Origin: Candidatus Bathyarchaeota archaeon
Lineage (GTDB): Archaea > Thermoproteota > Bathyarchaeia > TCS64
Direction: 5' to 3'
Length of the DNA stretch: 64,000 bases
Assembly (NCBI GenBank): GCA_026014875.1
Contig: JAOZHO010000033.1
Location: 13,256-77,255, forward strand
Part shown: one piece after another, positions 16,876-37,171 of the stretch
Layout: every line of letters begins with the position of its first letter
Numbering within the stretch: position 1 is the first letter of the stretch
Made by a program: the position numbers and the translations under genes
Notes under the pieces: generated by a model
What the model saw: only the letters and a program-made list of their open reading frames with translations
Database searches by the model: none
Told to the model about the DNA's origin: nothing

Positions 16876-17388
16876 TCAGTAGACGTACTCGACCCTGAGG
16901 TCCATGTTCCGGACCCCCTTCGCGATCTCAGTCAGGGCGGTAATCCTCTTCTGGCTCAGGCGCCGAGCCCCTCGCCCTTGGAGGACGACCCGCGTCTCCG
17001 TGGTCCCATCGGGGAGCCAGATGATGTTGATGGTGACGATGTGCTGCCCCGTGAAGAGGTCCTCTAGGAAACCCCTGTCGTTGACCCCCTCCTCGATTAT
17101 CAGAACCCTGCGGTTGAACTGGTCCCCGATGTCCCTAGGAAGCCTCCCGGGTCCCCCCGTGAACTTTATGCGGTCCCCCCGCCCCACAACGAGGACGAGG
17201 AAGCCCCTCACATCGATCACCCTCTCCAGGCTCGCCTTTTGGAGCGAGGGGTTCCGGTTCTCGACTTTCAGAAGATACTGGGCCACCTTAATGTAGAGAT
17301 CGTTGACTACGCCTGTGCTGACCTTCTCTTGACACTTGTTGCAGAGCATCCCGCTCTTCAAACAGAACTCACATAGTTGGGTTTGCAC
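16876..17388 (-). CDS. zinc-ribbon plus KH-like RNA-binding protein (uncertain family)
   Basis: The N-terminal ribbon is CEFC...CNKC. The central segment VVGRGDRIKFTGGPGR is GxxG-like. Confidence 0.45.
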   Translation of the reverse strand: MQTQLCEFCLKSGMLCNKCQEKVSTGVVNDLYIKVAQYLLKVENRNPSLQKASLERVIDVRGFLVLVVGRGDRIKFTGGPGRLPRDIGDQFNRRVLIIEEGVNDRGFLEDLFTGQHIVTINIIWLPDGTTETRVVLQGRGARRLSQKRITALTEIAKGVRNMDLRVEYVY

Positions 17389-17937: not shown

Positions 17938-18014
17938 GCCGCCGTGGCTCAGCTCGGTAGAGCGTCTGCCTGTTAAGCAGTTGGTCATCGGTTCAAATCC
18001 GATCGGCGGCGCCA
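17938..18014 (+). tRNA. tRNA-Asn (anticodon GTT), CCA encoded
   Basis: GCCGCCGTGGCTCAGCTCGGTAGAGC...CTGTTAA...GGTTCAAATCCGATCGGCGGCGCCA. Confidence 0.8.
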
Positions 18015-18025
18015 ACACTCTCCGA

Positions 18026-21000
18026 TCAACGCTTCTTGAGGACCACGAGGCCGTCCTCCAGACCCAGCGCCCCGGAATCGAGGGCCCCACGGTAGATCAC
18101 CCGCAGGGCCTCCAGGATTTTGGGTCCCATCCGCTTGAATCCGAGGAGGCGGGCCGTCTCGTTGAGTAGAGTCTCCTCCCTTATCCCGAGGGAGTACCCG
18201 GCGACCATTGTCAACGCCGTCAGCGTCTCCTCTGGGGGAAGGTACTCGATGGGCCTGAAGCTCTCGGCGACGCCATCCACAGGGGCCCTCACCCGGACCG
18301 TGTCCCGGCCCTTGGGCCAGAGGAAATCGCCCCTCACATCGATCCTGTCCTTCCCGGCCTCATCCACCTCCTCCTGGAAGGCCGCCCTGAAGGCTTTCGT
18401 AGCCCGGCTCAGCCTGAAGGCGCTGTTCATCCTCCTGAACGCGAGGTCCACGTGGATGGGACCCTCCCCCCTCACCAGCTGGGGAAGGAGCCGCCTAACC
18501 TCCGAGTGGTACTGCTTCAGGTACCGTTCCCTGTGCTCCGAAGAGTACCTCGTGAAGAGGTGCTCGGGCTTCAGCTTCACGAACCTGTAGGGCTCCACCT
18601 CGGGGAGCTCCCCCGGGGGAGTGTCCAACACCTTCACCTTCTTCACCGAGTTCCTCTTGGGCCGGGCGGGGGGCTTCTTGGCAGCCTTACGGACATCCTT
18701 CCGTGGCCCCTTCTCGGCGTCCTTGAGGGTCTTCGCGAGCCTCTTCGCCTCGGTCTCCCGCCTCTGGACCCAGTCAGGTGACCAGACACGGTGGATCCTC
18801 CACCCCAGGTTCTCCAGAACCTGAATCCTGAGGCGGTCCCTGTCCCGGGCGGTGTCGGCGGTCACGTAGTTCTCCCCGTCGCACATGATCCCCAGTATGA
18901 ACCTCCCCGGATCGTCGGGGTCCACGACTCCCAGGTCCACCCTGAAGACCCCGGAGCCCACCCAGGGCACCGTCCTGTAGCCCAGGCGTCTCACCTCCTC
19001 GGCGACCTCGTCGTCCAACGGGGAGGTGAGGCTGACCTCCTCGGCGGCTAAGTCGTCCAGGTTCCGGGGGCGCCTCTCGGCGTACCTCATGTAGTGGTGG
19101 AGGCTGTGGACTCCCTCGGCCTGGGTGGATTCTAGCCTGATGTCGTCGTACTTGATGCTGCTAACGAGGATCACCTTCTCCCGGGCGCGGGTCACCGCGA
19201 CGTTGAGACGGCGCTCCCCTCCCTGCTTGTTGAGGGGGCCGAAGTTCATGGTGATCCTGCCGTTCGCGTCGAAACCATAGCCGACGCTGAATATCATGAC
19301 GTCCCTCTCGTCGCCCTGAACGTTCTCCAGGTTCTTCACGAAGAAGCCGTCGAGCCTGTCCTCGACGAAGAACTTCTCGAACCTGGGGCGCTCCCGGAGG
19401 CGCGCCTCGACGGTGTCCTGCACCGTGTTCATCTGGCTCAGGCTGAAGGTGACCACCCCCAGGGTCTTCTCTGGGTGCCTCTCGAAGTGCTCGAAGACGA
19501 GGTTGGCCACCACCTCGGCCTCCCTCACGTTATTCCTCTTGCCCCCGCGGTCGTAGACGCCGTCCTTGACGTGGACGAACTCGAGGCCCAGGTCGGAGGA
19601 GCTCATCCTCGAGGAGGGGAAGAGCACGAGGTTGCCGTTGTAGAACCTGTCGTTGCTGAAGCGGATCAGCGAGTCGTGCTTGCTCCTATAGTGCCACCGG
19701 AGCATCTGGACGGGGAGCCCGATGCTCATGCACTCGTCGAGGACGCTGTCGAAGACGTCGAACTCGTAGGCGTCCTCGTCCCAGTCGAAATCCTCGTCCA
19801 GGGTGTGCTGGAAGAAAGGTGTCGGAGGGAGCTGCTTCGGATCCCCGGCGACGACAAAGGTGTCCCCCCGATAGATGGAGCCCACAGCGTCCTCGGTGTA
19901 GATCTGGCTCGCCTCGTCGAAGACCACGAGGTCGAAGTGGAGCCCCCCTGGGATGAGGAACTGGCTCACGCTGATGGGGCTCATCATGAGGCAGGGCTTC
20001 AGCCTCCTCACGAGGTTGGGGATCCGCTCAAACAGGTTCCTCAGAGGCATGTGGCGACGCTTCTTCGCCGCCTCCCGCATCAACACCGTGATCTCCGAGT
20101 CCGGGGCCTGGACGAAGACCCCTTGGGGCTTCTGCTCGTTGGCGATCTCGATCACTCTCTGGGAGGCGAGCTGGATGAACCGGCGGTCCAAGTTCTGGAA
20201 ATCCTCGATGAGCTGCTCGTGGTTCTGGCCCCTGAAAGCCTCGAGGACCGCGTCCTCCCTGTAGACGGCGTCCAGGAGACCCTGGTACATCGCCTTCCTG
20301 AAGACATCCACGAGTCGCCCCCTCTCGACCCTCTCAGCGACGAGGCTCTCGAGGAATCTCCCGAGCCCCGCCTCCCTTAGGTTGGCCTCCTGGGCCTTGA
20401 AGTCCACCCAGGTCTGGAGGCCGTCTATACTGGTTCGCAGGACGCCCAGACTCGTCCGCACCTTTTCGAGGGTCAGGCCCCCCCTCGGCTCGGGCCAGCG
20501 CTCTCTCTCGAAGCGGTCGTCGATGGAGTCGAGGGACGAGGAGATGTCGCTCCACCTCGCTCCGATCAAGGGGTCAGGCGGAAGAGGCAGCCCGTCCTGG
20601 GAGACGCCCCCGGCTAGCCTCTCGGGGACCCCCCGGGGGAGGGCTCTGATCAGCCTCCGGGTCCACCCCAGCGCCTCGAGGACCCCGTCCCAATCCGTCC
20701 TGAGGCCGCTGTAGAGTTTGCCAAAGAACCCTCTCATCTCCTCGGAGCGGCTGTCGACCTCATCCTCGAATCTCTGAAGCCCCTCCACGGTCCTCAGATC
20801 CTTCAACAGGACCATATAGGTCGCCGGGTGCTTGTGGAGACGTATGGCCAGCGCCTCGGACGATAATCTTGAAAGGCTTGTGAGCTTCTGCAGGGAGTCC
20901 ACAGCCCAGGACTCCACCTCCCGGAGGCTGCTTTTCCGCATCGAGGCCCCCGAATTCGGCATCCGTCTGGATGGGATCAGCCCCCGCAGCTTCCTCGAGT

Positions 21001-23575
21001 CGGCTCTCCAAGCGGAGAGGGAGCTCGACAGATCCTCGCTGTGCCGAAGGAGGTCCTCGCCGGGTTTCGAGAGGGAGGATAGATTGTCCCTGAGGGCTTT
21101 AGGGGCTCTGGCGGTGCCTGCTATGCGGAGGGCCTTGGAGGCGTTCTTGAGGGCCACCTCGGCTCCGTCGAAATCGGGCTCCTCCCCCCGGTAGTAGACG
21201 CCCAGGGTCTTCCGGGAGCGCTCGAGGTTGGCGTCCAGCCTCTCCAAGAGCTCCCGGAGCTCCCTTGCAGCTTTGAGGTCCTCGACGGCTGTCTCGGGGA
21301 ACGCCCCGTCTCGTGTGACCTTGGAGACGGCACCTTTGATCCTGTAGTAGCTGGGGGATAACACCCTGAGGAAAGAGCTGCCGGGGCCCTCCAGGTACTC
21401 GATTATCTCGTCGAGCTCCAGGGATAGGACTGCGTCATCGTAGGCCTCAAGCCTCCCCCTGAGCTCCTCCCTGTGGAAGTGATCGATCTTCAGAGTCTCG
21501 AGAAGCCCCTTGGTCTCCTCAAGGCCGCTCCGGTCAAGCCACGATCTCATGGGTCTGTGCTCGGCCTCGCACATGCGGGCGAGCTCGGAGACGTGGATGA
21601 TCCTCTCAAGGATCTGGGATTCTCCTTTCAGCCCAAGGATCGATGAAATCCGTTCGGCGCTCCCCCTCATGTTTCGGAGCCTCCCCGGGAGCCCCCGGAG
21701 GAAGGCGTCCAGTTCCTTCGAGTGTCTGAGGAGCCCCCCGTCCCCCCTCGACACGGGGGCAAGGAGTTCGGTGAGATCCTTCCAGGCCTCCTCGATCCTG
21801 CCGGCGGTCCCCGGAGGCATGATGAGAAGCCGGGTGTCATAGTTCTTCCCGAGGGCCCCCACTGAGGCCCAGTATTCGCCCCACTCCTTCCTGCTCTTCT
21901 CGGCGAGGGACCGGATCTCCCGGAGGTCTACGCCCACGAGCCATCCCTGAGGGGGCCTCGGGGTCGCGCCGATGATCTCGGTCAGCCTCTGCAGGCGCTC
22001 GTACTCCTCAATCGTGCCCGGGGTTTCGAGACCCAGGGCCTCGGCGTATACTCTGGAGCCTCTCTCTAACTCGTTGGCCGTCGCCACGGCGCTCTCTAGG
22101 AGGTGGATCCACTGGGAGAGGGTCTCCGGGGTGAACCTCTCCTCGGTGCACCCCTTCCACGGGAAGGCGTCCCCCTCTTCGACTACTCTCCAAGCGTTGG
22201 AGAGCCTCCGGATCCTGTCCTCGAGTCCCAGGAGGCTCCCCTGGTCCAGGGAGTCGAAGGCCCCGTAGCCGGTGGGGAGAAGGGGGGTCTTCTCGAGGCT
22301 TGCGAGGGTCCCGAAGATCTTGTGGGGGGTGAGCCCTATGGGCTCTCTGCGGGTGTGGAGGGCCTTGACGTACTCGTTGAGCTGGTCCCGCCTCGCGATG
22401 AGACGCTCCAGCTCCTCGTCGGTCATCGCGCCCCGGGCCTTGAGGTGTTCGTTGAGGGACCTGCTGAGCTCGGCTACCACCTCCCTCTTGTTGGCCTTGT
22501 GGCTGTGGAGCTCGAGGCAATAGTCGTCCAGGTTCCGGGCCTTGAGGCGGCTGTAGACCACTTCGAGGGCGGCCATCTTTTCGCTTACGAAGAGGATGCT
22601 CTTCCCCCGGGCGATGAACTCGGCGATCATGTTCGCGATGGTCTGGCTCTTCCCGGTGCCCGGGGGGCCGTGCATCACGAAGCTCTGCCCCGCGAGGGCG
22701 TACTGGATGCAGAGCTGCTGGCTGCTGTCTGCGTCCAGGACCTGGAAGACCTCCTTGGGGTCTAAACTGTCCAGCTCTCCAGCTACGGGCAGGGAGTCCC
22801 CCGCTACGGGTGGTGGGGTCACCCCGGCGAGGGCCCTGATGATGGGGTGTTCGATGATGGTGTCCACGTTGTCGATGAGGTCCTGGTACATCACCAGCTT
22901 GTGGAAGGAGAATAGGCCCAGATGGACGCTGGCCTCCACCTCCCACCCGGTCTCCAGGATGGCCTCCCTCACGTCTGCGAGGTAGCCCGTGAGTGCCTCC
23001 TCGTCCCAGTCGGGGAGCGGGGGGAGCTCGATCTTGTGCTCGTACTGGAGCTTGAGCCGGAGGGCGGGGTTGAGGATCGCCTCGTCCTCGACGGCGGGCA
23101 CCCGGACCGTGTAGGGGTCCCGGGTGGTTTTCCGTGTGAGCTCCACGGGGGTGAGGACTATGGGGGACATGATGGGCTGGTTCGACCCGCCCTCCTTCCA
23201 GCTGAGCATCCCGAAGGCGACGTATAGGATCCGGACCCCTCTCTCCCGGTACTCGGAGGCGGAGCGCCTCGCAAGGTTCCGGAGGACCCGCCTCAGCCGG
23301 GGGGCCTCGATCCCTTCGGGGACGAGCTGCGTTTTCCTGGGCCGATGCTTGCCCCGGGGTTCCCCGTCGTCCTCGGGGGGCTCCCAGATCGACCAAGCCC
23401 GGTCCTTGACGACGAGCCTCTCGAAGACTGCGTCGATGCCGGGGCGCTGGAACCTGAGGTTTGAGCTGCGGGTGGGCCTGAAGTTGACGAGTCGGTTCCT
23501 CCTGCTCAGGTCGATGAGTCTGTGCTTCCAGTCGTCGACCCTCCTGAGAACCTTGGCCAGAGAAGCCGAATTCAT
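18026..23575 (-). CDS. giant helicase-nuclease: DUF4011 / Upf1-like SF1 helicase (AAA_11/AAA_12) / restriction-endonuclease-like fold / DUF3320
   Basis: Walker A GPPGTGKSQT. Motif II VVFDEASQ. RLNVAVTRAREKVILVSS. A C-terminal REase-like segment (GYRTVPWVGSGVFRVDLGVV...WRIHRVWSPDW). The ATG at 23575 with GAGGGAG upstream is preferred over the GTG at 23617. Confidence 0.8.
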   Translation of the reverse strand: MNSASLAKVLRRVDDWKHRLIDLSRRNRLVNFRPTRSSNLRFQRPGIDAVFERLVVKDRAWSIWEPPEDDGEPRGKHRPRKTQLVPEGIEAPRLRRVLRNLARRSASEYRERGVRILYVAFGMLSWKEGGSNQPIMSPIVLTPVELTRKTTRDPYTVRVPAVEDEAILNPALRLKLQYEHKIELPPLPDWDEEALTGYLADVREAILETGWEVEASVHLGLFSFHKLVMYQDLIDNVDTIIEHPIIRALAGVTPPPVAGDSLPVAGELDSLDPKEVFQVLDADSSQQLCIQYALAGQSFVMHGPPGTGKSQTIANMIAEFIARGKSILFVSEKMAALEVVYSRLKARNLDDYCLELHSHKANKREVVAELSRSLNEHLKARGAMTDEELERLIARRDQLNEYVKALHTRREPIGLTPHKIFGTLASLEKTPLLPTGYGAFDSLDQGSLLGLEDRIRRLSNAWRVVEEGDAFPWKGCTEERFTPETLSQWIHLLESAVATANELERGSRVYAEALGLETPGTIEEYERLQRLTEIIGATPRPPQGWLVGVDLREIRSLAEKSRKEWGEYWASVGALGKNYDTRLLIMPPGTAGRIEEAWKDLTELLAPVSRGDGGLLRHSKELDAFLRGLPGRLRNMRGSAERISSILGLKGESQILERIIHVSELARMCEAEHRPMRSWLDRSGLEETKGLLETLKIDHFHREELRGRLEAYDDAVLSLELDEIIEYLEGPGSSFLRVLSPSYYRIKGAVSKVTRDGAFPETAVEDLKAARELRELLERLDANLERSRKTLGVYYRGEEPDFDGAEVALKNASKALRIAGTARAPKALRDNLSSLSKPGEDLLRHSEDLSSSLSAWRADSRKLRGLIPSRRMPNSGASMRKSSLREVESWAVDSLQKLTSLSRLSSEALAIRLHKHPATYMVLLKDLRTVEGLQRFEDEVDSRSEEMRGFFGKLYSGLRTDWDGVLEALGWTRRLIRALPRGVPERLAGGVSQDGLPLPPDPLIGARWSDISSSLDSIDDRFERERWPEPRGGLTLEKVRTSLGVLRTSIDGLQTWVDFKAQEANLREAGLGRFLESLVAERVERGRLVDVFRKAMYQGLLDAVYREDAVLEAFRGQNHEQLIEDFQNLDRRFIQLASQRVIEIANEQKPQGVFVQAPDSEITVLMREAAKKRRHMPLRNLFERIPNLVRRLKPCLMMSPISVSQFLIPGGLHFDLVVFDEASQIYTEDAVGSIYRGDTFVVAGDPKQLPPTPFFQHTLDEDFDWDEDAYEFDVFDSVLDECMSIGLPVQMLRWHYRSKHDSLIRFSNDRFYNGNLVLFPSSRMSSSDLGLEFVHVKDGVYDRGGKRNNVREAEVVANLVFEHFERHPEKTLGVVTFSLSQMNTVQDTVEARLRERPRFEKFFVEDRLDGFFVKNLENVQGDERDVMIFSVGYGFDANGRITMNFGPLNKQGGERRLNVAVTRAREKVILVSSIKYDDIRLESTQAEGVHSLHHYMRYAERRPRNLDDLAAEEVSLTSPLDDEVAEEVRRLGYRTVPWVGSGVFRVDLGVVDPDDPGRFILGIMCDGENYVTADTARDRDRLRIQVLENLGWRIHRVWSPDWVQRRETEAKRLAKTLKDAEKGPRKDVRKAAKKPPARPKRNSVKKVKVLDTPPGELPEVEPYRFVKLKPEHLFTRYSSEHRERYLKQYHSEVRRLLPQLVRGEGPIHVDLAFRRMNSAFRLSRATKAFRAAFQEEVDEAGKDRIDVRGDFLWPKGRDTVRVRAPVDGVAESFRPIEYLPPEETLTALTMVAGYSLGIREETLLNETARLLGFKRMGPKILEALRVIYRGALDSGALGLEDGLVVLKKR

Positions 23576-23751
23576 AGGCTGTTCTCCCTCTCTTATGCTA
23601 AACATGGCGCTTCTCACGAATAAGTGTATTTCCGGCCTCCTCAGGAGGATAAGGAAAAATCACGCGGGAAAGGGTTGAAAAAGCCTGTCTTGAGGGTTTT
23701 AGAGCCGGTTTTATGAATTAAAAAAGGCTCTAAGGAGGTTTCTGGCCCCGT

Positions 23752-26062: not shown

Positions 26063-26138
26063 GCCTCGGTAGCTCAGTGGCCAGAGCGGCAGCCTCGTAA
26101 GTTGTTGGCCGCGGGTTCGACTCCCGCCCGGGGCTCCA
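26063..26138 (+). tRNA. tRNA-Thr (anticodon CGT), CCA encoded
   Basis: GCCTCGGTAGCTCAGTGGCCAGAGCG GCAGC CTCGTAA GTTGT ... GCGGGTTCGACTCCCGC CCGGGGC T CCA. The anticodon stem has two G-U pairs. Confidence 0.75.
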
Positions 26139-31980: not shown

Positions 31981-32053
31981 ATCGGTGCGGGAGCCGTGTA
32001 TGTAGTGATCGGACCCGTACACGGGTTCATTATCTACTGGGCTCCTAACGAAA

Positions 32054-32434
32054 ATGGGTGGTGTTTTGGATCCGTTTTTGAGGGGTTTCAACGAGAGTTT
32101 GATGGACACTAATCTATCGGAGATCGAGGTTCAGAATCTGAAGGGGATAACGGCGATCTTCAGTAAAGAGATCAAATCGAAGCTTGATGCCCAGTTCGGT
32201 TTCATACTGGGTTTTTCGTATGCGAAGTTCCTGATGCAATTCCTCATTCTCAAGAATAGTATGCCCACGAAGGAGGAGACGAAAGAGTTCTTCGAGCTTC
32301 TGAAGAGGCGCCACCCTGAGATTGTCTCGATCCTGAGGGATGTGAGGGTCGCCGATATCGTTGAACGGAACGAGTCTGTTGCATCCTTCGAAGAACATGA
32401 AGTAGAACCGGATAGCGAGGACCCAACCTTCTAA
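32054..32434 (+). CDS. hypothetical protein
   Basis: ORF in a lower-GC stretch. No family was recognised. Confidence 0.35.
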   Translation: MGGVLDPFLRGFNESLMDTNLSEIEVQNLKGITAIFSKEIKSKLDAQFGFILGFSYAKFLMQFLILKNSMPTKEETKEFFELLKRRHPEIVSILRDVRVADIVERNESVASFEEHEVEPDSEDPTF

Positions 32435-32481
32435 CATCGCGCGCGATCAGTAAAACGCCTACCAGAAAACCTATCTCAACG

Positions 32482-33012
32482 ATGGGGGGAGGTTATCCCA
32501 TGTTAGAGAAAATTCTGGATGAGGTGAACGAGGCCAACAGGAGCCGGAAGACAATCTCCAAGATGGAGTTGGGAGAGATCGACCAGTTCCTGGTTCACTC
32601 CAGGGTGGGGAGGATCGGCATATCCCTTGATGATAACCCCTACGTTGTTCCCGTCGGCTACTGCTACGAGGGCGGTGAGATTTTCTTCCATTCCTGCTTC
32701 AGCGGGCTGAAGATGAGGAGCATGGCACGAAACCCCAAAGTCTGCTTCCTGGTCGACGAGTCCCTCTCGGACGGCTCCATGTACAAGAGCGTGATAGTCA
32801 GGGGGTCCGTGGAGATCATCGATGACGGGGAGAGGATGCTGCCGTACCTGCAGAGCCTCATTAACAAGTACAGGGTCCCCGTGGGCTTCGACGAGTACAT
32901 CGGCAGGCCAGGGCGGAGCAGGGAGAAGGAGATGGCGGTAGTCCGAGTATGTGTGATCACCCCGAGTGAGATCACCAGTAGGAAGATGGTGCGCGCGCTT
33001 ACGCGCGCGTGA
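32482..33012 (+). CDS. pyridoxamine 5'-phosphate oxidase-family (FMN-binding split-barrel) protein
   Basis: GRIGISLDDNPYVVPVGYCYEGGEIFFHS...CFLVDE is a PNPOx-like pattern. Confidence 0.65.
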   Translation: MGGGYPMLEKILDEVNEANRSRKTISKMELGEIDQFLVHSRVGRIGISLDDNPYVVPVGYCYEGGEIFFHSCFSGLKMRSMARNPKVCFLVDESLSDGSMYKSVIVRGSVEIIDDGERMLPYLQSLINKYRVPVGFDEYIGRPGRSREKEMAVVRVCVITPSEITSRKMVRALTRA

Positions 33013-33061
33013 AAAGGCTGATGGAGAATAAATTTATCTTATTACAGGTTATGTTCCGTCT

Positions 33062-33790
33062 ATGATCGACTACAATAAAATATCTGGGCATTACACACAA
33101 CACCGCCAAAAGGTACATCCAGGGATATTGAAGGAACTCCTATCCGGATCTGAATATCAAAACAATTCGACTGTTCTCGAAGTGGGCTGCGGAACAGCGA
33201 ATTACATCATCGAAATACAATCCCTCACAGGAAGCAGATGCTGGGGCATAGACCCATCAGAAAAAATGCTATCAGTGGCCAGAGAAAGGTCAAAAACAAT
33301 AGATTTTAAAAATGGCAGAGGAGAGCAACTGGATTTCTCAAATGATTTCTTCGATTTCATATTCTCCGTAGATGTGATCCATCACGTGGAAGGTCATCTA
33401 GAATACTTTCAAGAGGCTTTTCGGACGTTAAAACCGGGAAATCGAATTTGTACCGTTACGGATTCCGAGTGGACACTCAGCAATCGGGTACCCCTGGCAA
33501 CTCACTTCCCAGAGACCGTTGAGGTCGAATTGGCCAGATATCCTAGGATTCATTATTTAACCGGGCTGATGAGGGAAGCGGGATTCACGGACATTCAGGA
33601 TAAACTCGTAGAGTTCTCATTCCACATGAAGGATATTCAGGCATTTCGAGATAGAGCATATAGTTCATTACACCTGATTTCAGAAGAAGCGTTTCAGAGA
33701 GGAATCACTCGATTGGAGGACGAATTAGATGAAAAAGGGTATATTCAAAATATTTCCAGATACACGCTTCTATGGGGAAGAAAAAATTAA
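33062..33790 (+). CDS. class I SAM-dependent methyltransferase
   Basis: SAM motif VLEVGCGTANY and distal motif LKPGNRI. The GC content is markedly lower than in the surroundings. Confidence 0.8.
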   Translation: MIDYNKISGHYTQHRQKVHPGILKELLSGSEYQNNSTVLEVGCGTANYIIEIQSLTGSRCWGIDPSEKMLSVARERSKTIDFKNGRGEQLDFSNDFFDFIFSVDVIHHVEGHLEYFQEAFRTLKPGNRICTVTDSEWTLSNRVPLATHFPETVEVELARYPRIHYLTGLMREAGFTDIQDKLVEFSFHMKDIQAFRDRAYSSLHLISEEAFQRGITRLEDELDEKGYIQNISRYTLLWGRKN

Positions 33791-33973
33791 AATCGCGCGC
33801 GCCTGTTCTGGAAATCGTGTGTGAGGAAAATAAAATTTTACCACTGAGAGGCAGGCGGAGTGCCTCCGCTCCTGTAGAGAGGGGAAGCCGTCTAATCCCC
33901 CTTTTTCTAGAGGGCAGCCTAAGGAGGGAATAACTCTTGTCTGGAAGTGGAGCGCGGGCCTTCCTTTATGCGT

Positions 33974-34792
33974 TCATTCACTCCTCGGCTCACTGAGGGG
34001 GACGCTGAGGCTTTCAAACCCTTTGACGAAGTCGGACATCCAGGCCACCACATCCTCCAACAGCGTCTCCGCGAACTCGGGAGTTATCTTGGAGTAGTCG
34101 CTGGTGCCTGGCACGTCGTCGGGGTGGGCCTCCGTCATGGAGCCGGTCTCAGATACGTCGACGGTGCTCAGCGGTATCCTAACGAGACCGTCTTTGAACC
34201 TCGCGAGCCCCGATCTGACAAGCTGGATCTCATCATCCACCTGCCTCGTCGGCGTCAACACCGCCCGGTCCATCCTCACAGCCTCGGGCCTCGACGCCAG
34301 CATGAGGGCGGTCTCGGCGTAACCTGCGTGCTCCTCGGCGGGGTGCCCGTGTATGGACCTGCTTCGCAGTATGTCCCACCACTGGACGACGGCGCAGAGG
34401 GTCCCCATGTCCTCCCGGGCCTCCTTGATGGCGCCGGTGATGGCGCCGAGGTTCCCCCCATGACCGTTCATGAAGACCACCCGATCTATTCCATAGCGGT
34501 CAAGGCTCTCGATGATCTCGTAGACCACCTCCTGGAGGGTCTCCGGGGCGAGAGTTATCGTCCCGGGGAACTCCTTATGGTGGCCCGAGACGCCGTATGG
34601 CATGACAGGCAGCACCAGAGCGCCCGTCCTCTCCCCAACCTTCCTCGCGATGTTCCAGGCCTGGATCCAGTCCGCCCCGACCCCTAGGTGAAGCCCGTGC
34701 TGCTCTGTCGCGCCTATCGGCACGATGGCGAGCCTCGTCTCACCGAACTTCTCCTCGGCCTCCGGCCAGGTCATATTAGATAGCTCGAACAT
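33974..34792 (-). CDS. creatininase-family amidohydrolase (archaeal ArfB-like)
   Basis: LAIVPIGATEQHGLHLGVGADW...NGHGGN is the creatininase fold signature. Confidence 0.75.
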   Translation of the reverse strand: MFELSNMTWPEAEEKFGETRLAIVPIGATEQHGLHLGVGADWIQAWNIARKVGERTGALVLPVMPYGVSGHHKEFPGTITLAPETLQEVVYEIIESLDRYGIDRVVFMNGHGGNLGAITGAIKEAREDMGTLCAVVQWWDILRSRSIHGHPAEEHAGYAETALMLASRPEAVRMDRAVLTPTRQVDDEIQLVRSGLARFKDGLVRIPLSTVDVSETGSMTEAHPDDVPGTSDYSKITPEFAETLLEDVVAWMSDFVKGFESLSVPLSEPRSE

Positions 34793-34905
34793 GATTTACT
34801 CCTCTTAAGAAGAGGACAATATGTCGAATAATAATGTGTGAGGTGTAAAGTGCCTTTGTCCCACGTACGCCTGTTAACGGACGCCTAAAGTCACGCTGGT
34901 AACTA

Positions 34906-35090
34906 GATGTCCAGCGTCTTCCCCGGGTTCTCGTTCACCATCATCCCGATCTCACCGTCGCTGATGCCGTTCTCCCTCATCACACGAATGAATATCCGTA
35001 GCCCCTCAGGCGACGGATTGTGCACCTAACCCAAGCCCGTGGCCTGGTCCAAGAAAGCGATGGTGGGCAGCTCATATCCGGCGGTGACTA
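34906..35090 (-). pseudogene. frameshifted C-terminal remnant of an amidohydrolase-superfamily gene
   Basis: The minus strand reads ...ITLVTAGYELPTIAFLDQATGLG. After a frame shift it reads VHNPSPEGLRIFIRVMRENGISDGEIGMMVNENPGKTLDI*. There is no upstream start. Confidence 0.3.
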
Positions 35091-35149
35091 AGGTGATGCT
35101 GGACGTTCTAAGGGACGGTGGGTGATGAAGTTTAACCCAAAGAGGTTAC

Positions 35150-35188
35150 AGGTACTTTTCAATCTCAAGTTGGAAACCCGCCCGGCGC
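35150..35188 (+). repeat. 36-nt intergenic repeat, copy C
   Basis: ggtacttttcaatctcaagttggaaacccgcccggcgcg. Confidence 0.55.
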
Positions 35189-35312
35189 GCGTTTCAGTTT
35201 ACATGTCTTTAATGGTTCTTTTACGTGTATCAGATGCCGAATTCGCAGTGAACTCTGAACGTGCGCGGGTGAGAAAGTGAATTAAATGAACTGGACTTGT
35301 GTTTGATCGTCT

Positions 35313-36857
35313 ATGAGAGGCGATAATAATGGGTTTTTCGGGGTTTGTGCAGTCCTGACTCTATTACTCGTCTCGTCGTCTCTCCCGTTCCTGAGCTGGG
35401 GGGCATCCGCCTCCGACCTGGATGAGAGAATCCAGAGGGTTGAGAATGGGTTATACGAACGCTCTTGGGAGGGTCTGCCTATCGGAGAAAAGTTGACGCT
35501 CGCGGAACGCATGGAATATTACAAAGTCCCAGGGGTCAGCATCGCCGTCATCAATGATTTTCAAATTGAATGGGCCAAGGGCTATGGCGTTCTAGAAACT
35601 GGAGGAAATCAGCCCGTAACCCCCGACACTCTTTTCCAAGCGGCTTCCATCAGCAAACCCGTTACTGCTGCGGCAGCCCTGCACTTTGTGGAACAGGGTC
35701 TCCTTGACCTCGACGAAAACGTCAACGATAAGCTAGTTTCTTGGAAAGTGCCTGAGAATGAGTTGACAGAACAGGAAAAGGTTACGCTTCGCCGTCTACT
35801 AAGCCACACCGCAGGAACTAGTGTCCACGGATTCAGAGGGTACGCATATAATGAGGAGATTCCCACCCTCCAGCAGATACTTGATGGGGAGCCGCCGGCC
35901 GATAATCCACCAATTCGCGTCGACATGGTTCCAGGGACTAAATGGCGGTACTCGGGTGGCGGCATCACGATCGTGCAACAGCTGCTCAAGGATATTATAG
36001 GCAAACCCTTTCCTGATATCATGCAGGAAGCAGTCCTCGAGCCAACAGGAATGATGGCTAGCACATTTAAACAGCCACTCCCTGAGGACCGCAGAGCTAC
36101 AGCAGCCACTGCGCACAATATCAATGGTGGGCCCCTCGGGGGAAAATGGCATATCTACCCTGAGATGGCGGCAGCGGGACTATGGACAACCGCTTCTGAT
36201 CTCGCACGCTTCGGCATCGAGATGATGCTTTCCTACCGTGGAGAATCGAATAAAATTCTCTCCGAGGAGATGGTGGAAGCAATGCTTTCTCCTCAGGTCG
36301 AGGGGTTCATGGGATTGGGATTTACGACACAAGGCGAAGGCCTAGATCATTGGTTTGGGCATGTCGGGGGTAATGAGGGATTTAGATGCATCATATTGGC
36401 CTATCCAGAACGAGGGTATGGCATTGTGGTGATGACAAATGGGGATGCAGGCGATTCGCTTTACAACGAGATTCTGATGAGCGTAGAGTTAGAATATAGC
36501 TTGTTCAACACAGACATGACGATATATGTGAAGGATAACGAGGGCAAGGCTATCAGTGGCGCTTCTGTGACCTCCATCTCCCAGCCGGAGGGTCAAGAGA
36601 CGCTGAGAGGCGCCACGGACTCCGATGGTTGTATGATCTTCACGAATGTGAGGCAGGGCGACTACGCGATCCAGGCGAGCAAGAGCGGATACACGACGGA
36701 TAAGGGAACATTGAACGCCATAATAGAGGAGACAGCTGAGTTAACCATCCTCCTCGAGAAGGAAGCGAAAGGCATCCCCGGCTTCCCTTACGAGTCAATC
36801 ATACTCGGGATAGTGATGGTGACCTTCCTGTTATGGGGGATGAGAAGAAGAACGTAG
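35313..36857 (+). CDS. beta-lactamase-family serine hydrolase with C-terminal CarboxypepD_reg-like domain and PGF-CTERM sorting signal
   Basis: Signal peptide. SxxK motif SISK. Domain DGCMIFTNVRQGDY. The C-terminus is GIPGFPYESIILGIVMVTFLLWGMRRRT. Confidence 0.8.
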   Translation: MRGDNNGFFGVCAVLTLLLVSSSLPFLSWGASASDLDERIQRVENGLYERSWEGLPIGEKLTLAERMEYYKVPGVSIAVINDFQIEWAKGYGVLETGGNQPVTPDTLFQAASISKPVTAAAALHFVEQGLLDLDENVNDKLVSWKVPENELTEQEKVTLRRLLSHTAGTSVHGFRGYAYNEEIPTLQQILDGEPPADNPPIRVDMVPGTKWRYSGGGITIVQQLLKDIIGKPFPDIMQEAVLEPTGMMASTFKQPLPEDRRATAATAHNINGGPLGGKWHIYPEMAAAGLWTTASDLARFGIEMMLSYRGESNKILSEEMVEAMLSPQVEGFMGLGFTTQGEGLDHWFGHVGGNEGFRCIILAYPERGYGIVVMTNGDAGDSLYNEILMSVELEYSLFNTDMTIYVKDNEGKAISGASVTSISQPEGQETLRGATDSDGCMIFTNVRQGDYAIQASKSGYTTDKGTLNAIIEETAELTILLEKEAKGIPGFPYESIILGIVMVTFLLWGMRRRT

Positions 36858-36867
36858 AGTGCGCACG

Positions 36868-36910
36868 CAGTGCTTTTCTGCCTCAAGTTAGTAGCCCGCC
36901 CGGGGTTTCC
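36868..36910 (+). repeat. 36-nt intergenic repeat, copy A
   Basis: cagtgcttttctgcctcaagttagtagcccgcccggggtttcc. It lies 11 nt after the lactamase stop. Confidence 0.55.
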
Positions 36911-37171
36911 GGTCGTCTTGACCTTAGCGTCGCTCATTCCTATCACCAACTGTGCTATCCACGCTGCGTATGCGCTCGCGGATGTGAAAGTGTACGCGCG
37001 CGCATGAAGAATGTATAAATTATTGCCCTCAAATTTATGATCTATTCTCTAGCGCGCAGTTTATATCATGCTTCTCGCTTGGCGTGTTATATCATGAGAA
37101 AAATAAAAAAAACAACTTGAAACTCGATTCGATCTATAAACTCCTGGCCGCCTCTCGGCGTCTGAGCTTAT

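What the first reader, a model, noticed from the sequence alone, without database searches (positions are those of the whole stretch)
17938..23617. 1.85k-aa single-gene helicase-nuclease (DUF4011 / Upf1-like SF1 helicase / REase fold / DUF3320) abutting tRNA-Asn
One intact ORF combines several domains:
- an N-terminal DUF4011-like region
- an SF1 helicase core with Walker A GPPGTGKSQT, VVFDEASQ and RLNVAVTRAREKVILVSS
- a restriction-endonuclease-like C-terminal domain
- a DUF3320-like tail

It ends 12 nt downstream of tRNA-Asn(GTT), which is a classical hot spot for acquired DNA.

Helicase plus nuclease in a single polypeptide is the architecture of several single-gene antiviral systems and of genome-maintenance nucleases. 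I do not know of a characterised function for this exact architecture.
Basis: partly seen in the sequence, partly recalled or inferred. Interest (0 to 1): 0.7.

Follow-up and report, generated by a model that had tools for sequence, protein, structure and literature searches.

The report
Archaeal Hhe-like helicase–nuclease gene
This is an intact 1,850-residue gene in a Bathyarchaeia archaeon from the known Hhe/ProA/PDC-S37 family of one-protein helicase–nuclease antiviral (or candidate antiviral) systems; it is an old, vertically inherited but dispensable resident next to tRNA-Asn rather than freshly acquired DNA, so it is a fairly ordinary new member of a known kind.

Summary
There is one intact ORF on the minus strand (18026..23617). 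It carries DUF4011, a split Upf1-like SF1 helicase, a Vsr-like nuclease (MTES_1575) and a DUF3320 winged-helix tail. Its stop codon lies 11 nt from the 3' end of a convergent tRNA-Asn(GTT).

The architecture is already catalogued:
- PADLOC PDC-S37: 1395 bits.
- NCBIfam anti-phage ProA: 1341 bits, cutoff 1500.
- NCBIfam Hhe: 847 bits, cutoff 2000.

The host is a Bathyarchaeia archaeon. The gene is not a recent island:
- Its codon usage is native.
- There is no att repeat and no integrase.
- The order ThiL–gene–tRNA-Asn–Alba–AspRS is kept in relatives down to about 61% identity.
- The gene tree matches the AspRS tree.
- dN/dS is 0.13–0.18.

It is nevertheless dispensable. Two sublineages have an empty site, or a nitroreductase cassette, at exactly this spot.

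One thing is new. The nuclease-motif Glu sits in GIECDG in Hhe, where a reported "E1731A" mutation abolishes defence. Here it is Met, and an acidic residue appears four positions later. This pairing holds in 56 of 57 clade members and recurs independently once elsewhere.

Best reading: a long-resident Hhe-like defence helicase–nuclease. A domesticated housekeeping role is the main rival.

The parts
18026..23617 (-). Whole ORF of the DUF4011 / SF1 helicase / Vsr-like nuclease / winged-helix protein. It is 1863 codons from the GTG. The likely true start is the ATG at 23575 (1849 aa) or the ATG at 23605 (1859 aa).
23048..23521 (-). N-terminal DUF4011 domain. Its fold has no solved relative.
22499..22729 (-). 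First part of helicase domain 1A. It carries Walker A, GPPGTGKS, at 22646..22669.
   Evidence: Pfam AAA_11. PDB sequence match to IGHMBP2. Translation.
20126..22375 (-). Insertion of about 750 residues between Walker A and Walker B. It has no Pfam family and is among the fastest-evolving parts of the protein (49% identity where the whole protein is 62%).
   Evidence: In the BLASTP alignment with Hhe, query residues 529-1003 of this stretch do not align.
19151..20125 (-). Remainder of the SF1 helicase core: motif II VVFDEASQ, GDPKQLPPT, VQGDERD and motif VI RRLNVAVTRAR.
   Evidence: Pfam AAA_12. PDB sequence matches to Sen1 and a 5'-3' RNA helicase-like protein. dN/dS 0.04-0.07.
18725..19012 (-). 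Vsr-like (MTES_1575) endonuclease domain.
18866..18892 (-). Nuclease motif GIMCDGENY. The family's Glu (GIECDG) is replaced by Met, and an acidic residue appears four positions later.
18029..18565 (-). C-terminal tandem winged-helix tail, which includes DUF3320. It follows a Lys/Arg-rich linker.
17938..18014 (+). tRNA-Asn(GTT), convergent with the ORF. Its 3' end lies 11 nt from the ORF stop codon. This linkage is conserved in relatives.
   Evidence: The gap is 0-13 nt in 20 related loci.
23618..23751 (-). Short spacer between the upstream ThiL gene and the ORF. It holds an A/T-rich TATA-like stretch (TTTTTTAATTCATAAAA, about 23709-23725).
   Evidence: Read directly from the sequence. Its function as a promoter is inferred, not tested.

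Best explanation
The gene encodes a chromosomal, single-protein helicase-nuclease of the DUF4011/Hhe-like family in a Bathyarchaeia archaeon. It most likely acts against invading DNA (viruses or plasmids).

Inferred mechanism:
- The Upf1-like SF1B motor uses ATP to translocate along nucleic acid.
- The tandem winged helices and the basic linker hold the DNA.
- The Vsr-like domain cuts it.
- The DUF4011 domain and the fast-evolving 750-residue insertion are the candidate sensing or regulatory parts.
- In this archaeal clade the catalytic acidic residue of the nuclease motif has moved from the third strand (GIECDG) to the start of the next helix (GIMCDGE). The nuclease is therefore probably still active, but with a rearranged site.

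Inferred history: the gene entered the slot at the 3' end of tRNA-Asn once, in the ancestor of a Bathyarchaeia subclade. It has been inherited vertically since and was lost at least twice.

Shown here: family membership at superfamily level, intact helicase motifs, the nuclease fold, purifying selection, synteny, co-divergence with a neighbour, and losses.

Inferred, not shown: the defence role, the substrate, the direction of translocation, and that the relocated acidic residue is catalytic.
For: Family:
- PADLOC PDC-S37, 1394.7 bits; PADLOC Hhe, 567 bits.
- NCBIfam anti-phage ProA, 1341 bits; NCBIfam Hhe, 847 bits.
- BLASTP to Klebsiella/E. coli Hhe: 37% identity over 628 residues (E 9e-109), plus 31% over the N-terminal 485.

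What is reported for Hhe:
- It defends against lambda, T3, T7 and PhiV-1, and a nuclease-motif Glu mutant loses activity (bioRxiv 10.1101/2022.06.16.496414).
- Phage DNA-metabolism genes behave as triggers (PMC11482910).

Helicase type: AAA_11 and AAA_12, TIGR00376 IGHMBP2 family, and PDB sequence matches to IGHMBP2 and Sen1.

Constraint: dN/dS is 0.13-0.18 overall, 0.04-0.12 in the nuclease domain and 0.04-0.07 in the helicase core.

Relocated acidic residue:
- With Glu at motif position 0, position +4 is never acidic (50 of 50 sequences).
- With a non-acidic residue at position 0 in the window's clade, position +4 is Glu or Asp in 56 of 57.
- P0215 shows the same swap independently, inside a Glu-type neighbourhood.
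- Five representatives carry Glu at both positions, as intermediates would.
- The +4 residue sits at the N-terminus of the helix that follows strand 3 in the model.

History:
- Synteny is conserved at 89, 80, 69 and 62% identity.
- Empty or alternatively filled sites: L034, L035, L036, L040.
- The tree of the gene's C-terminal part is broadly congruent with the AspRS tree; Pearson r is 0.82 over 153 pairwise distances.

Dispensability and patchiness fit a defence gene:
- At least two losses in the archaeal clade.
- Hhe is present in only 309 of 5426 complete E. coli genomes.
- Relatives lie on 467 plasmid records, one of them next to a DUF262 gene.
Against: - No experiment exists for any archaeal member.
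- The protein scores below the NCBIfam equivalog cutoffs for both ProA (1341 against 1500) and Hhe (847 against 2000), as do five archaeal relatives.
- PDC-S37 is only a candidate system. I found no primary paper for ProA.
- The gene is flanked by housekeeping genes, not by a defence island.
- Its long vertical residence with native codon usage is unusual for defence genes.
- The Glu shown to be needed in Hhe is missing. Relocation is inferred from sequence patterns that largely reflect one ancestral event.
- The mapping of the published 'E1731A' onto E1727 of the 1911-aa Hhe is an inference: it is the nearest Glu, with a numbering offset of 4.
Confidence: 0.6

Rival explanations
1. Domesticated housekeeping enzyme. 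In this Bathyarchaeia clade the Hhe-like protein has been co-opted for a cellular task. Examples would be genome maintenance, resolving transcription-replication conflicts or R-loops in the manner of Sen1, or RNA surveillance. It would no longer be an immune gene.
For: - Conserved synteny among core genes, down to about 61% identity.
- Gene tree congruent with AspRS.
- Strong purifying selection.
- Host-like GC3 of 0.88 and host-like codon usage.
- No neighbouring defence genes.
- The helicase core's nearest solved relatives are IGHMBP2 and Sen1.
- Precedent: in P. aeruginosa a large DUF4011 gene is a core gene present in every isolate (PMC10250203).
- The rewired nuclease motif is specific to this clade.
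Against: - The gene was lost at least twice within the clade. It is absent from this locus in sister clades.
- In one lineage the same slot holds unrelated cargo.
- The closest named families are all anti-phage or defence candidates.
- The large insertion evolves fast, as sensor regions of immune proteins often do.
Confidence: 0.2
2. Recently acquired genomic islet. This is the first reader's picture: the gene is cargo of a mobile element that integrated into tRNA-Asn.
For: - The gene lies exactly at the 3' end of tRNA-Asn, the classic integration side.
- The slot is variable among lineages.
- A 55%-identical homologue in a different context also abuts tRNA-Asn (L007). Two 50%-identical ones lie about 250 nt from tRNA-Arg.
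Against: - There is no second copy of the tRNA 3' end anywhere in the 64 kb window, even allowing 3 mismatches.
- No att-like direct repeats.
- No integrase or transposase beside the gene.
- GC3 and codon usage match AspRS.
- Identity to relatives tracks that of the flanking genes, and the trees agree.
- Only 6 distant relatives were found among 2.9 million viral contigs.
Confidence: 0.05
3. Nuclease-dead helicase. Loss of the motif Glu inactivated the Vsr-like domain. It would now serve only as a DNA-binding or oligomerisation module, and the protein would act through its helicase activity alone.
For: - The Glu of GIECDG is Met here, and Met, Leu or Ile throughout the clade.
- The corresponding Glu-to-Ala change reportedly abolishes Hhe defence (the residue mapping is inferred).
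Against: - The acidic residue at +4 is kept in 56 of 57 clade members, with Glu and Asp interchanging.
- The same pairing arose independently in P0215, and double-Glu forms exist.
- Asp1547, Asp1566-Gly, Tyr1570 and RDRDRLR stay (near-)invariant.
- The nuclease domain has the lowest dN/dS of any region in the closest comparison, 0.04.
- In E. coli Vsr itself the aligned position is Phe62. This comes from my own alignment to the Vsr sequence as I recall it and was not made with a tool.
Confidence: 0.15

Closest known systems
Hhe, the single-gene anti-phage system of E. coli and Klebsiella (NCBIfam NF042953, PADLOC Hhe). By my own knowledge it was first described by Gao et al. 2020; the review seen groups it with dsr, tmn, qatABCD, ppl and upx under a single reference.
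   Same: - Same domain order: DUF4011, Walker A, long insertion, SF1 helicase, Vsr-like nuclease.
- 31-37% identity over the conserved parts.
- Single gene with no partner.
- The RDRDRLR and DG..Y nuclease motifs are shared.
   Different: - The score is 847 bits against an equivalog cutoff of 2000.
- Hhe has GIECDGAAYH whereas the window has GIMCDGENYV.
- The alignment with Hhe ends just after the nuclease domain, so the window's winged-helix tail is not matched.
- Hhe is patchy (309 of 5426 E. coli genomes) and plasmid-borne beside other defence genes. The archaeal gene is syntenic and vertically inherited.
Anti-phage protein ProA (NCBIfam NF058533) and PADLOC candidate PDC-S37
   Same: - These are the best-scoring named families: 1341 bits and 1395 bits.
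- The match runs through to the C-terminal end of the ProA model (positions 994-1903 of 1903), so it includes the DUF3320 tail.
   Different: - The score is below the ProA equivalog cutoff of 1500. All five archaeal relatives tested are also below it, at 1272-1429 bits.
- I found no primary literature for either name in the held library. What ProA does, and in which organism, is therefore unknown to me.
Core DUF4011 gene flanking defence hotspot cDHS1 in Pseudomonas aeruginosa (PMC10250203)
   Same: A large DUF4011 gene that behaves as a conserved chromosomal gene and borders a variable region.
   Different: - It is bacterial.
- Its sequence relationship to the window protein was not tested.
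- Its own function is not reported in that paper.
Vsr / DUF559 / I-Bth0305I / RAP-domain endonuclease fold (MTES_1575 REase of Anantharaman et al. 2013, PMC3710099)
   Same: - Followed by two winged helices, as described for MTES_1575.
   Different: - It is fused here to a helicase.
- MTES_1575 itself also carries HEPN and transglutaminase domains. Pfam reported neither for this protein.
- The acidic residue is shifted in the motif.
Upf1-like SF1B helicases (IGHMBP2, Sen1)
   Same: Walker A, motif II and motif VI are shared. These are the nearest solved structures by sequence. The protein also matches TIGR00376.
   Different: - The matches are weak (E 2.7e-08 down to about 1e-03) and cover only the motor domains.
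- The 750-residue insertion, DUF4011, the nuclease and the winged-helix tail are absent from those proteins.

Membership tests
Hhe (NCBIfam NF042953 equivalog) | Whole-protein score at or above the curated cutoff of 2000 bits | tested here: not met
   847.1 bits. Archaeal relatives score 816-875 bits.
Hhe (NCBIfam NF042953 equivalog) | Architecture of DUF4011 + SF1 helicase + Vsr-like nuclease in a single polypeptide | tested here: met
   Pfam domains. Alignment to the 1911-aa Klebsiella/E. coli Hhe over both the N-terminal and the helicase-nuclease parts.
Hhe (NCBIfam NF042953 equivalog) | Nuclease-motif Glu (GIECDG), reported as required for defence | tested here: not met
   The window has Met at this position. 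An acidic residue is present at +4 instead. The requirement is reported in bioRxiv 10.1101/2022.06.16.496414; mapping its 'E1731' to this Glu is inferred.
Hhe (NCBIfam NF042953 equivalog) | Protects cells against virus infection | not testable with these tools
   Needs expression and challenge experiments.
ProA (NCBIfam NF058533 equivalog) | Whole-protein score at or above the curated cutoff of 1500 bits | tested here: not met
   1341.3 bits. This is the closest named family, but the score is below the cutoff.
PADLOC PDC-S37 (candidate single-gene system) | Match to the PDC-S37 profile | tested here: met
   1394.7 bits, E = 0, best stretch 924-1852 of the protein onto 631-1539 of the 1550-position profile. 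PADLOC's own thresholds were not available to me.
Upf1-like SF1 helicases | Walker A, motif II DEAS/DExx, and motif VI with its Arg finger, all intact | tested here: met
   GPPGTGKS, VVFDEASQ and RRLNVAVTRAR are present. They are near-invariant in 39 homologues. Pfam AAA_11 and AAA_12 match.
Upf1-like SF1 helicases | ATP-dependent 5'->3' translocation | not testable with these tools
   Inferred from family membership only.
Vsr-like / MTES_1575 endonuclease fold | alpha-beta-beta-beta-alpha-beta core superimposable on Vsr | tested here: met
   [not shown]
tRNA-integrated mobile island | Direct repeat of the tRNA 3' end (attL/attR) bounding the insert | tested here: not met
   The only match in the 64 kb window, allowing up to 3 mismatches, is the tRNA itself. 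No flanking direct repeats.
tRNA-integrated mobile island | Integrase or recombinase gene, and foreign base composition | tested here: not met
   The neighbours are ThiL, a CoA-transferase, Alba and AspRS. The gene's GC3 is 0.879 against 0.83-0.90 for ThiL and AspRS, and its codon-usage distance of 0.150 is among the lowest of the genes compared.
Core (housekeeping) gene of the lineage | Present in all members of the clade at a conserved position | tested here: not met
   The position is conserved in most members. The site is empty in L034 and L035. It is differently filled in L036 and L040. The gene is absent from the locus outside the subclade.

The most novel reading that the evidence does not exclude
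A Bathyarchaeia lineage has kept an Hhe-like immune helicase-nuclease for a very long time at one chromosomal spot, abutting tRNA-Asn, and has rebuilt its nuclease active site by moving the catalytic acidic residue four positions along. This could mark the domestication of a defence gene into a cellular function, for example Sen1-like clearing of conflicts or R-loops. Alternatively it could mark a mechanistically distinct subfamily with altered cleavage chemistry or substrate.
Probability: 0.12. Interest if true: 0.6.

Novelty: new member of a known kind. Interest (0 to 1): 0.3.

Why it matters
- It places an Hhe/ProA/PDC-S37-type single-protein helicase-nuclease in Bathyarchaeia, an uncultured and abundant sediment archaeal group.
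- It shows that such a gene can persist by vertical descent for a long time instead of cycling through defence islands.
- The paired change in the nuclease motif (Glu lost at one position, acid gained four residues later) is a concrete, testable prediction about where the active site lies in the whole DUF4011/Hhe family. I found no solved structure of a close relative in the PDB.
- The DUF4011 domain model has no solved structural relative, so it is a reasonable target for structure determination.

Tried and rejected
1. Primary literature for 'ProA' and 'PDC-S37'. Six targeted these two names or PDC-S in general and found nothing relevant. Every 'proA' hit that I could identify was the proline-biosynthesis gene. 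The archaeal defence survey PMC12988326 does not mention PDC-S37, Hhe or Bathyarchaeia in its text or in its held supplements.

2. att sites. I searched for a second copy of the tRNA-Asn 3' end and for flanking direct repeats and found none.

3. Apparent split of the gene in the 'complete' genome CP070640.1 (L013 and L021, 162 kb apart). I rejected this as evidence of disruption. Both breakpoints abut runs of N, and the 271-nt overlap is only 87% identical, so it is a scaffolding or chimeric-assembly artefact.

4. The idea that Glu-to-Met means a dead nuclease. I downgraded it after finding the +4 acidic pairing, strong constraint on the domain, and an independent recurrence.

6. Viral origin. 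Only six distant relatives were found in IMG/VR.

7. Gao et al. 2020 could not be read: the PMC id I recalled is not held. Attribution of Hhe to that paper therefore rests on my own knowledge plus the indirect citations seen.

8. dN/dS for the distant pairs (L005, L006, L012) is saturated or unreliable and was not used.


Full report

Yes. The mechanical ORF list shows a single open frame at 18026..23617 on the minus strand, 1863 codons from a GTG.

ARAGORN and Rfam both place tRNA-Asn(GTT) at 17938..18014 on the plus strand. The two genes converge. The stop codon (18026-18028) is 11 nt from the tRNA 3' end.

Homologues begin at the ATG at 23575 (MNSASLAKV, 1849 aa) or at the ATG at 23605 (1859 aa), so the true product is 1849-1859 residues. 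Unless stated otherwise, residue numbers below use the 1849-aa numbering.

Pfam confirms all four domains above the curated cutoffs: DUF4011, AAA_11/AAA_12 (the Upf1-like SF1 helicase), MTES_1575 nuclease and DUF3320.

**2. Whose genome, and what surrounds the gene?**

The flanking genes are archaeal housekeeping genes:
- On one side: Alba, a conserved 170-aa Zn-ribbon ORF, a class II AspRS and a small PTH2-sized ORF.
- On the other side: an AIRS-family gene that I read as ThiL, a family III CoA-transferase and tRNA-Thr.

The best protein hits are 'Candidatus Bathyarchaeota / Bathyarchaeia archaeon' at up to 92% identity. No integrase, transposase or recognised defence gene lies beside the gene.

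**3. What family is it?**

The architecture is not uncharacterised.
- PADLOC's candidate system PDC-S37 matches with 1394.7 bits, and PADLOC's Hhe with 567 bits.
- NCBIfam's 'anti-phage protein ProA' matches with 1341 bits against a cutoff of 1500. NCBIfam's 'DUF4011 domain-containing anti-phage protein Hhe' matches with 847 bits against a cutoff of 2000.

I retrieved a PGAP-annotated Hhe from a Klebsiella plasmid. The same gene is 99.7-100% identical in E. coli. It aligns with the window protein at 37% identity over the helicase-nuclease part and at 31% over the DUF4011/Walker A part.

What is reported for Hhe:
- It is active against lambda, T3, T7 and PhiV-1, and a nuclease-motif mutant ('E1731A') loses activity (bioRxiv 10.1101/2022.06.16.496414).
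- T7 DNA-metabolism genes behave as triggers (PMC11482910).

Five archaeal relatives also fall below both NCBIfam cutoffs. The protein therefore belongs to the wider DUF4011/Hhe-like family, closest to ProA/PDC-S37, but is not an equivalog of either named protein. I could not find any paper describing ProA or PDC-S37 in the held library.

The family is large. The C-terminal 700 residues, which include half of the generic SF1 motor, match 8147 50%-identity clusters at E ≤ 1e-30. Relatives lie on 467 plasmid records, including haloarchaeal plasmids and Ralstonia megaplasmids.

**4. Structure**

An AlphaFold2 model of the C-terminal 350 residues has a mean pLDDT of 84.8. It shows an alpha-beta-beta-beta-alpha-beta nuclease core, then a poorly modelled basic linker, then a well-modelled helical and winged-helix tail.

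The tail matches tandem winged-helix proteins. This agrees with the 2013 description of MTES_1575 as a Vsr-fold nuclease plus two wHTH domains overlapping DUF3320 (PMC3710099).

By sequence, the nearest solved helicases are IGHMBP2 and Sen1.

**5. Is it acquired DNA at a tRNA hot spot?**

Recent acquisition is not supported.
- GC3 is 0.879 and the codon-usage distance to neighbouring genes is 0.150. AspRS gives 0.902 and 0.152.
- No second copy of the tRNA 3' end exists anywhere in the window, even with 3 mismatches. There are no att-like repeats.
- The order ThiL – gene – tRNA-Asn – Alba – 170-aa ORF – AspRS is kept on contigs whose helicase is 92, 88, 79, 69 and 61-62% identical. Identity in the flanking genes falls in step.

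A metagenome scan with AspRS gave 80 loci. In an AspRS neighbour-joining tree, one subclade has tRNA-Asn upstream of Alba, and nearly all its members carry the helicase there. The tree of the helicase's C-terminal part is broadly congruent with the AspRS tree, with Pearson r = 0.82 over 153 pairwise distances.

The stop-codon-to-tRNA gap is 0-13 nt in 20 loci.

The gene is not universal, however.
- L034 and L035 have ThiL – tRNA-Asn – Alba with nothing in between (362 and 444 bp from ThiL to Alba).
- L036 and L040 carry a 153-aa nitroreductase-like ORF (my reading of its sequence) and a 113-aa Zn-ribbon ORF in the same slot.
- Mapped on the tree, this is most simply one gain followed by at least two losses.
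- Outside the subclade, neither the tRNA nor the helicase sits upstream of Alba.

More distant homologues at 42-55% identity lie in other contexts. One of them (L007) again abuts tRNA-Asn. Two others (L014, L016) lie about 250 nt from tRNA-Arg and keep ThiL upstream.

Conclusion: the slot at the 3' end of tRNA-Asn is variable, and the gene probably arrived there long ago. It has been a stable, dispensable resident since.

**6. Is the gene under selection?**

Yes. Against relatives with unsaturated dS (0.23-0.89), dN/dS is 0.13-0.18 overall. By region:
- Helicase core: 0.04-0.07.
- Nuclease domain: 0.04-0.12.
- The 750-residue insertion: 0.17-0.25.
- The C-terminal tail: 0.15-0.21.

**7. A clade-specific change in the nuclease motif**

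In Hhe and in the more distant archaeal relatives the third strand reads GIECDG or GIEFDG. In the window protein and its whole clade (about 45-92% identity) the Glu is Met, Leu or Ile.

In the 1911-aa Hhe this Glu is residue 1727. It is the only Glu within 17 residues of position 1731. The published E1731A mutant therefore most probably targets it, with a 4-residue numbering offset. This mapping is an inference.

Taken alone, the change would suggest a dead nuclease. Four observations argue otherwise.
- Position +4 covaries tightly with position 0. With Glu at position 0, +4 is Ala, Thr, Val, Ser, Pro or another non-acidic residue in 50 of 50 sequences. With a non-acidic residue at position 0 in the window's clade, +4 is Glu or Asp in 56 of 57.
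- Most of this reflects one ancestral event, so the counts are not independent. Even so, Glu and Asp interchange at +4 while neighbouring positions drift, which points to constraint on the charge.
- Among 147 representatives of the wider family, 143 keep Glu at position 0. One (P0215) has Leu with Glu at +4 although all its nearest relatives are Glu-type, so the swap recurred independently. Five representatives from at least four lineages carry Glu at both positions, as intermediates would.
- In the model, the +4 residue sits at the N-terminus of the short helix that follows strand 3.

By my own alignment to E. coli Vsr, made from the sequence as I recall it and not with a tool, the position-0 residue corresponds to Phe62 and the invariant Asp of the 'DG' to His64. 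A hydrophobic residue there is thus compatible with an active Vsr-type enzyme.

I conclude that the catalytic acid has probably been relocated rather than lost. This is a prediction, not a demonstration.

**8. Mechanism**

Best-supported reading, confidence about 0.6: an Hhe-like single-protein defence enzyme.
- An SF1B motor moves along invader nucleic acid.
- Winged helices and a basic linker bind the DNA.
- A Vsr-like domain cleaves it.
- DUF4011 and the fast-evolving insertion provide sensing or autoinhibition.

Only the parts list, motif integrity, fold and selection are shown here. The activity, the substrate and the biological role are inferred from homology to Hhe.

Main rival, about 0.2: domestication to a cellular role.
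- For: synteny, co-divergence, native composition, and the precedent of a core DUF4011 gene in every P. aeruginosa isolate (PMC10250203).
- Against: the repeated losses.

Other rivals: a nuclease-dead helicase (about 0.15) and a recent tRNA-targeted island (about 0.05).

**9. Novelty and verdict**

This is a new, archaeal member of a known kind: the DUF4011/Hhe/ProA/PDC-S37 helicase-nucleases. PADLOC's library matches it strongly to PDC-S37.

The belief that the architecture is uncharacterised was wrong, and so was the implication of recent acquisition.

Three modestly interesting points remain:
- The long vertical residence at the tRNA-Asn 3' end.
- The apparent relocation of the catalytic acid in the nuclease motif.
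- The absence of any solved fold relative for DUF4011.

Interest: 0.3.

Noticed in passing
window 32000-37000, especially 33062..33790 (+) and 35313..36857 (+): A low-GC patch (window GC 0.45-0.53 against about 0.60-0.65 elsewhere). It holds a class I methyltransferase with GC3 0.42 and a beta-lactamase-family protein with a CarboxypepD_reg domain with GC3 0.58. The two lie among native-looking genes (PNPOx-like, creatininase). By composition they look far more like recently acquired DNA than the helicase gene does.
   Followed up: partly
L036 659-1957 and L040 627-1925 (between ThiL and tRNA-Asn): In one related lineage the exact slot occupied by the helicase holds two other genes: a 153-aa nitroreductase-like ORF (my reading of its sequence) and a 113-aa CxxC...CxxC ORF. 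In L034 and L035 the slot is empty. The 3' side of tRNA-Asn is therefore a small variable site in this Bathyarchaeia subclade.
   Followed up: yes
L013 (CP070640.1 752282-772190) and L021 (CP070640.1 590228-608135): The 'complete chromosome' of Bathyarchaeota bin91 carries the gene as two pieces 162 kb apart. Both ends abut runs of N, and the 271-nt overlap is only 87% identical. This points to a scaffolding or chimeric join of two populations, not a real gene split.
   Followed up: yes
window 16876..17388 (-): A 170-aa ORF with an N-terminal CxxC...CxxC motif has no Pfam match. It is nevertheless conserved between Alba and AspRS in essentially every related locus, at 50-94% identity. It is an uncharacterised core gene of this lineage.
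   Followed up: no
[not shown]
   Followed up: partly
P0166, P0178, P0216, P0228, P0259 (Glu at both positions); P0215 (Leu then Glu); P0211, P0068, P0070, P0030 (no acid at either position): Across the wider family the nuclease motif shows three kinds of variant. Some have Glu at both position 0 and +4, which look like intermediates. One shows an independent swap. A few have no acidic residue at either position and may be nuclease-dead members.
   Followed up: partly
L007 10511-10587; L014 13796-13873; L016 13416-13493: Homologues at 50-55% identity sit in otherwise different gene contexts, yet they still have a convergent tRNA gene just downstream. It is tRNA-Asn at 62 nt in L007 and tRNA-Arg(CCG) at about 250 nt in L014 and L016. 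This recurrent helicase-tRNA adjacency is not explained.
   Followed up: partly
window 26063..26138 (+) and the equivalent positions in L001, L003-L006, L012-L014, L016, L032 and L105: tRNA-Thr(CGT) next to the CoA-transferase gene is likewise conserved across these loci. The whole block from tRNA-Thr to AspRS is an old syntenic unit.
   Followed up: no
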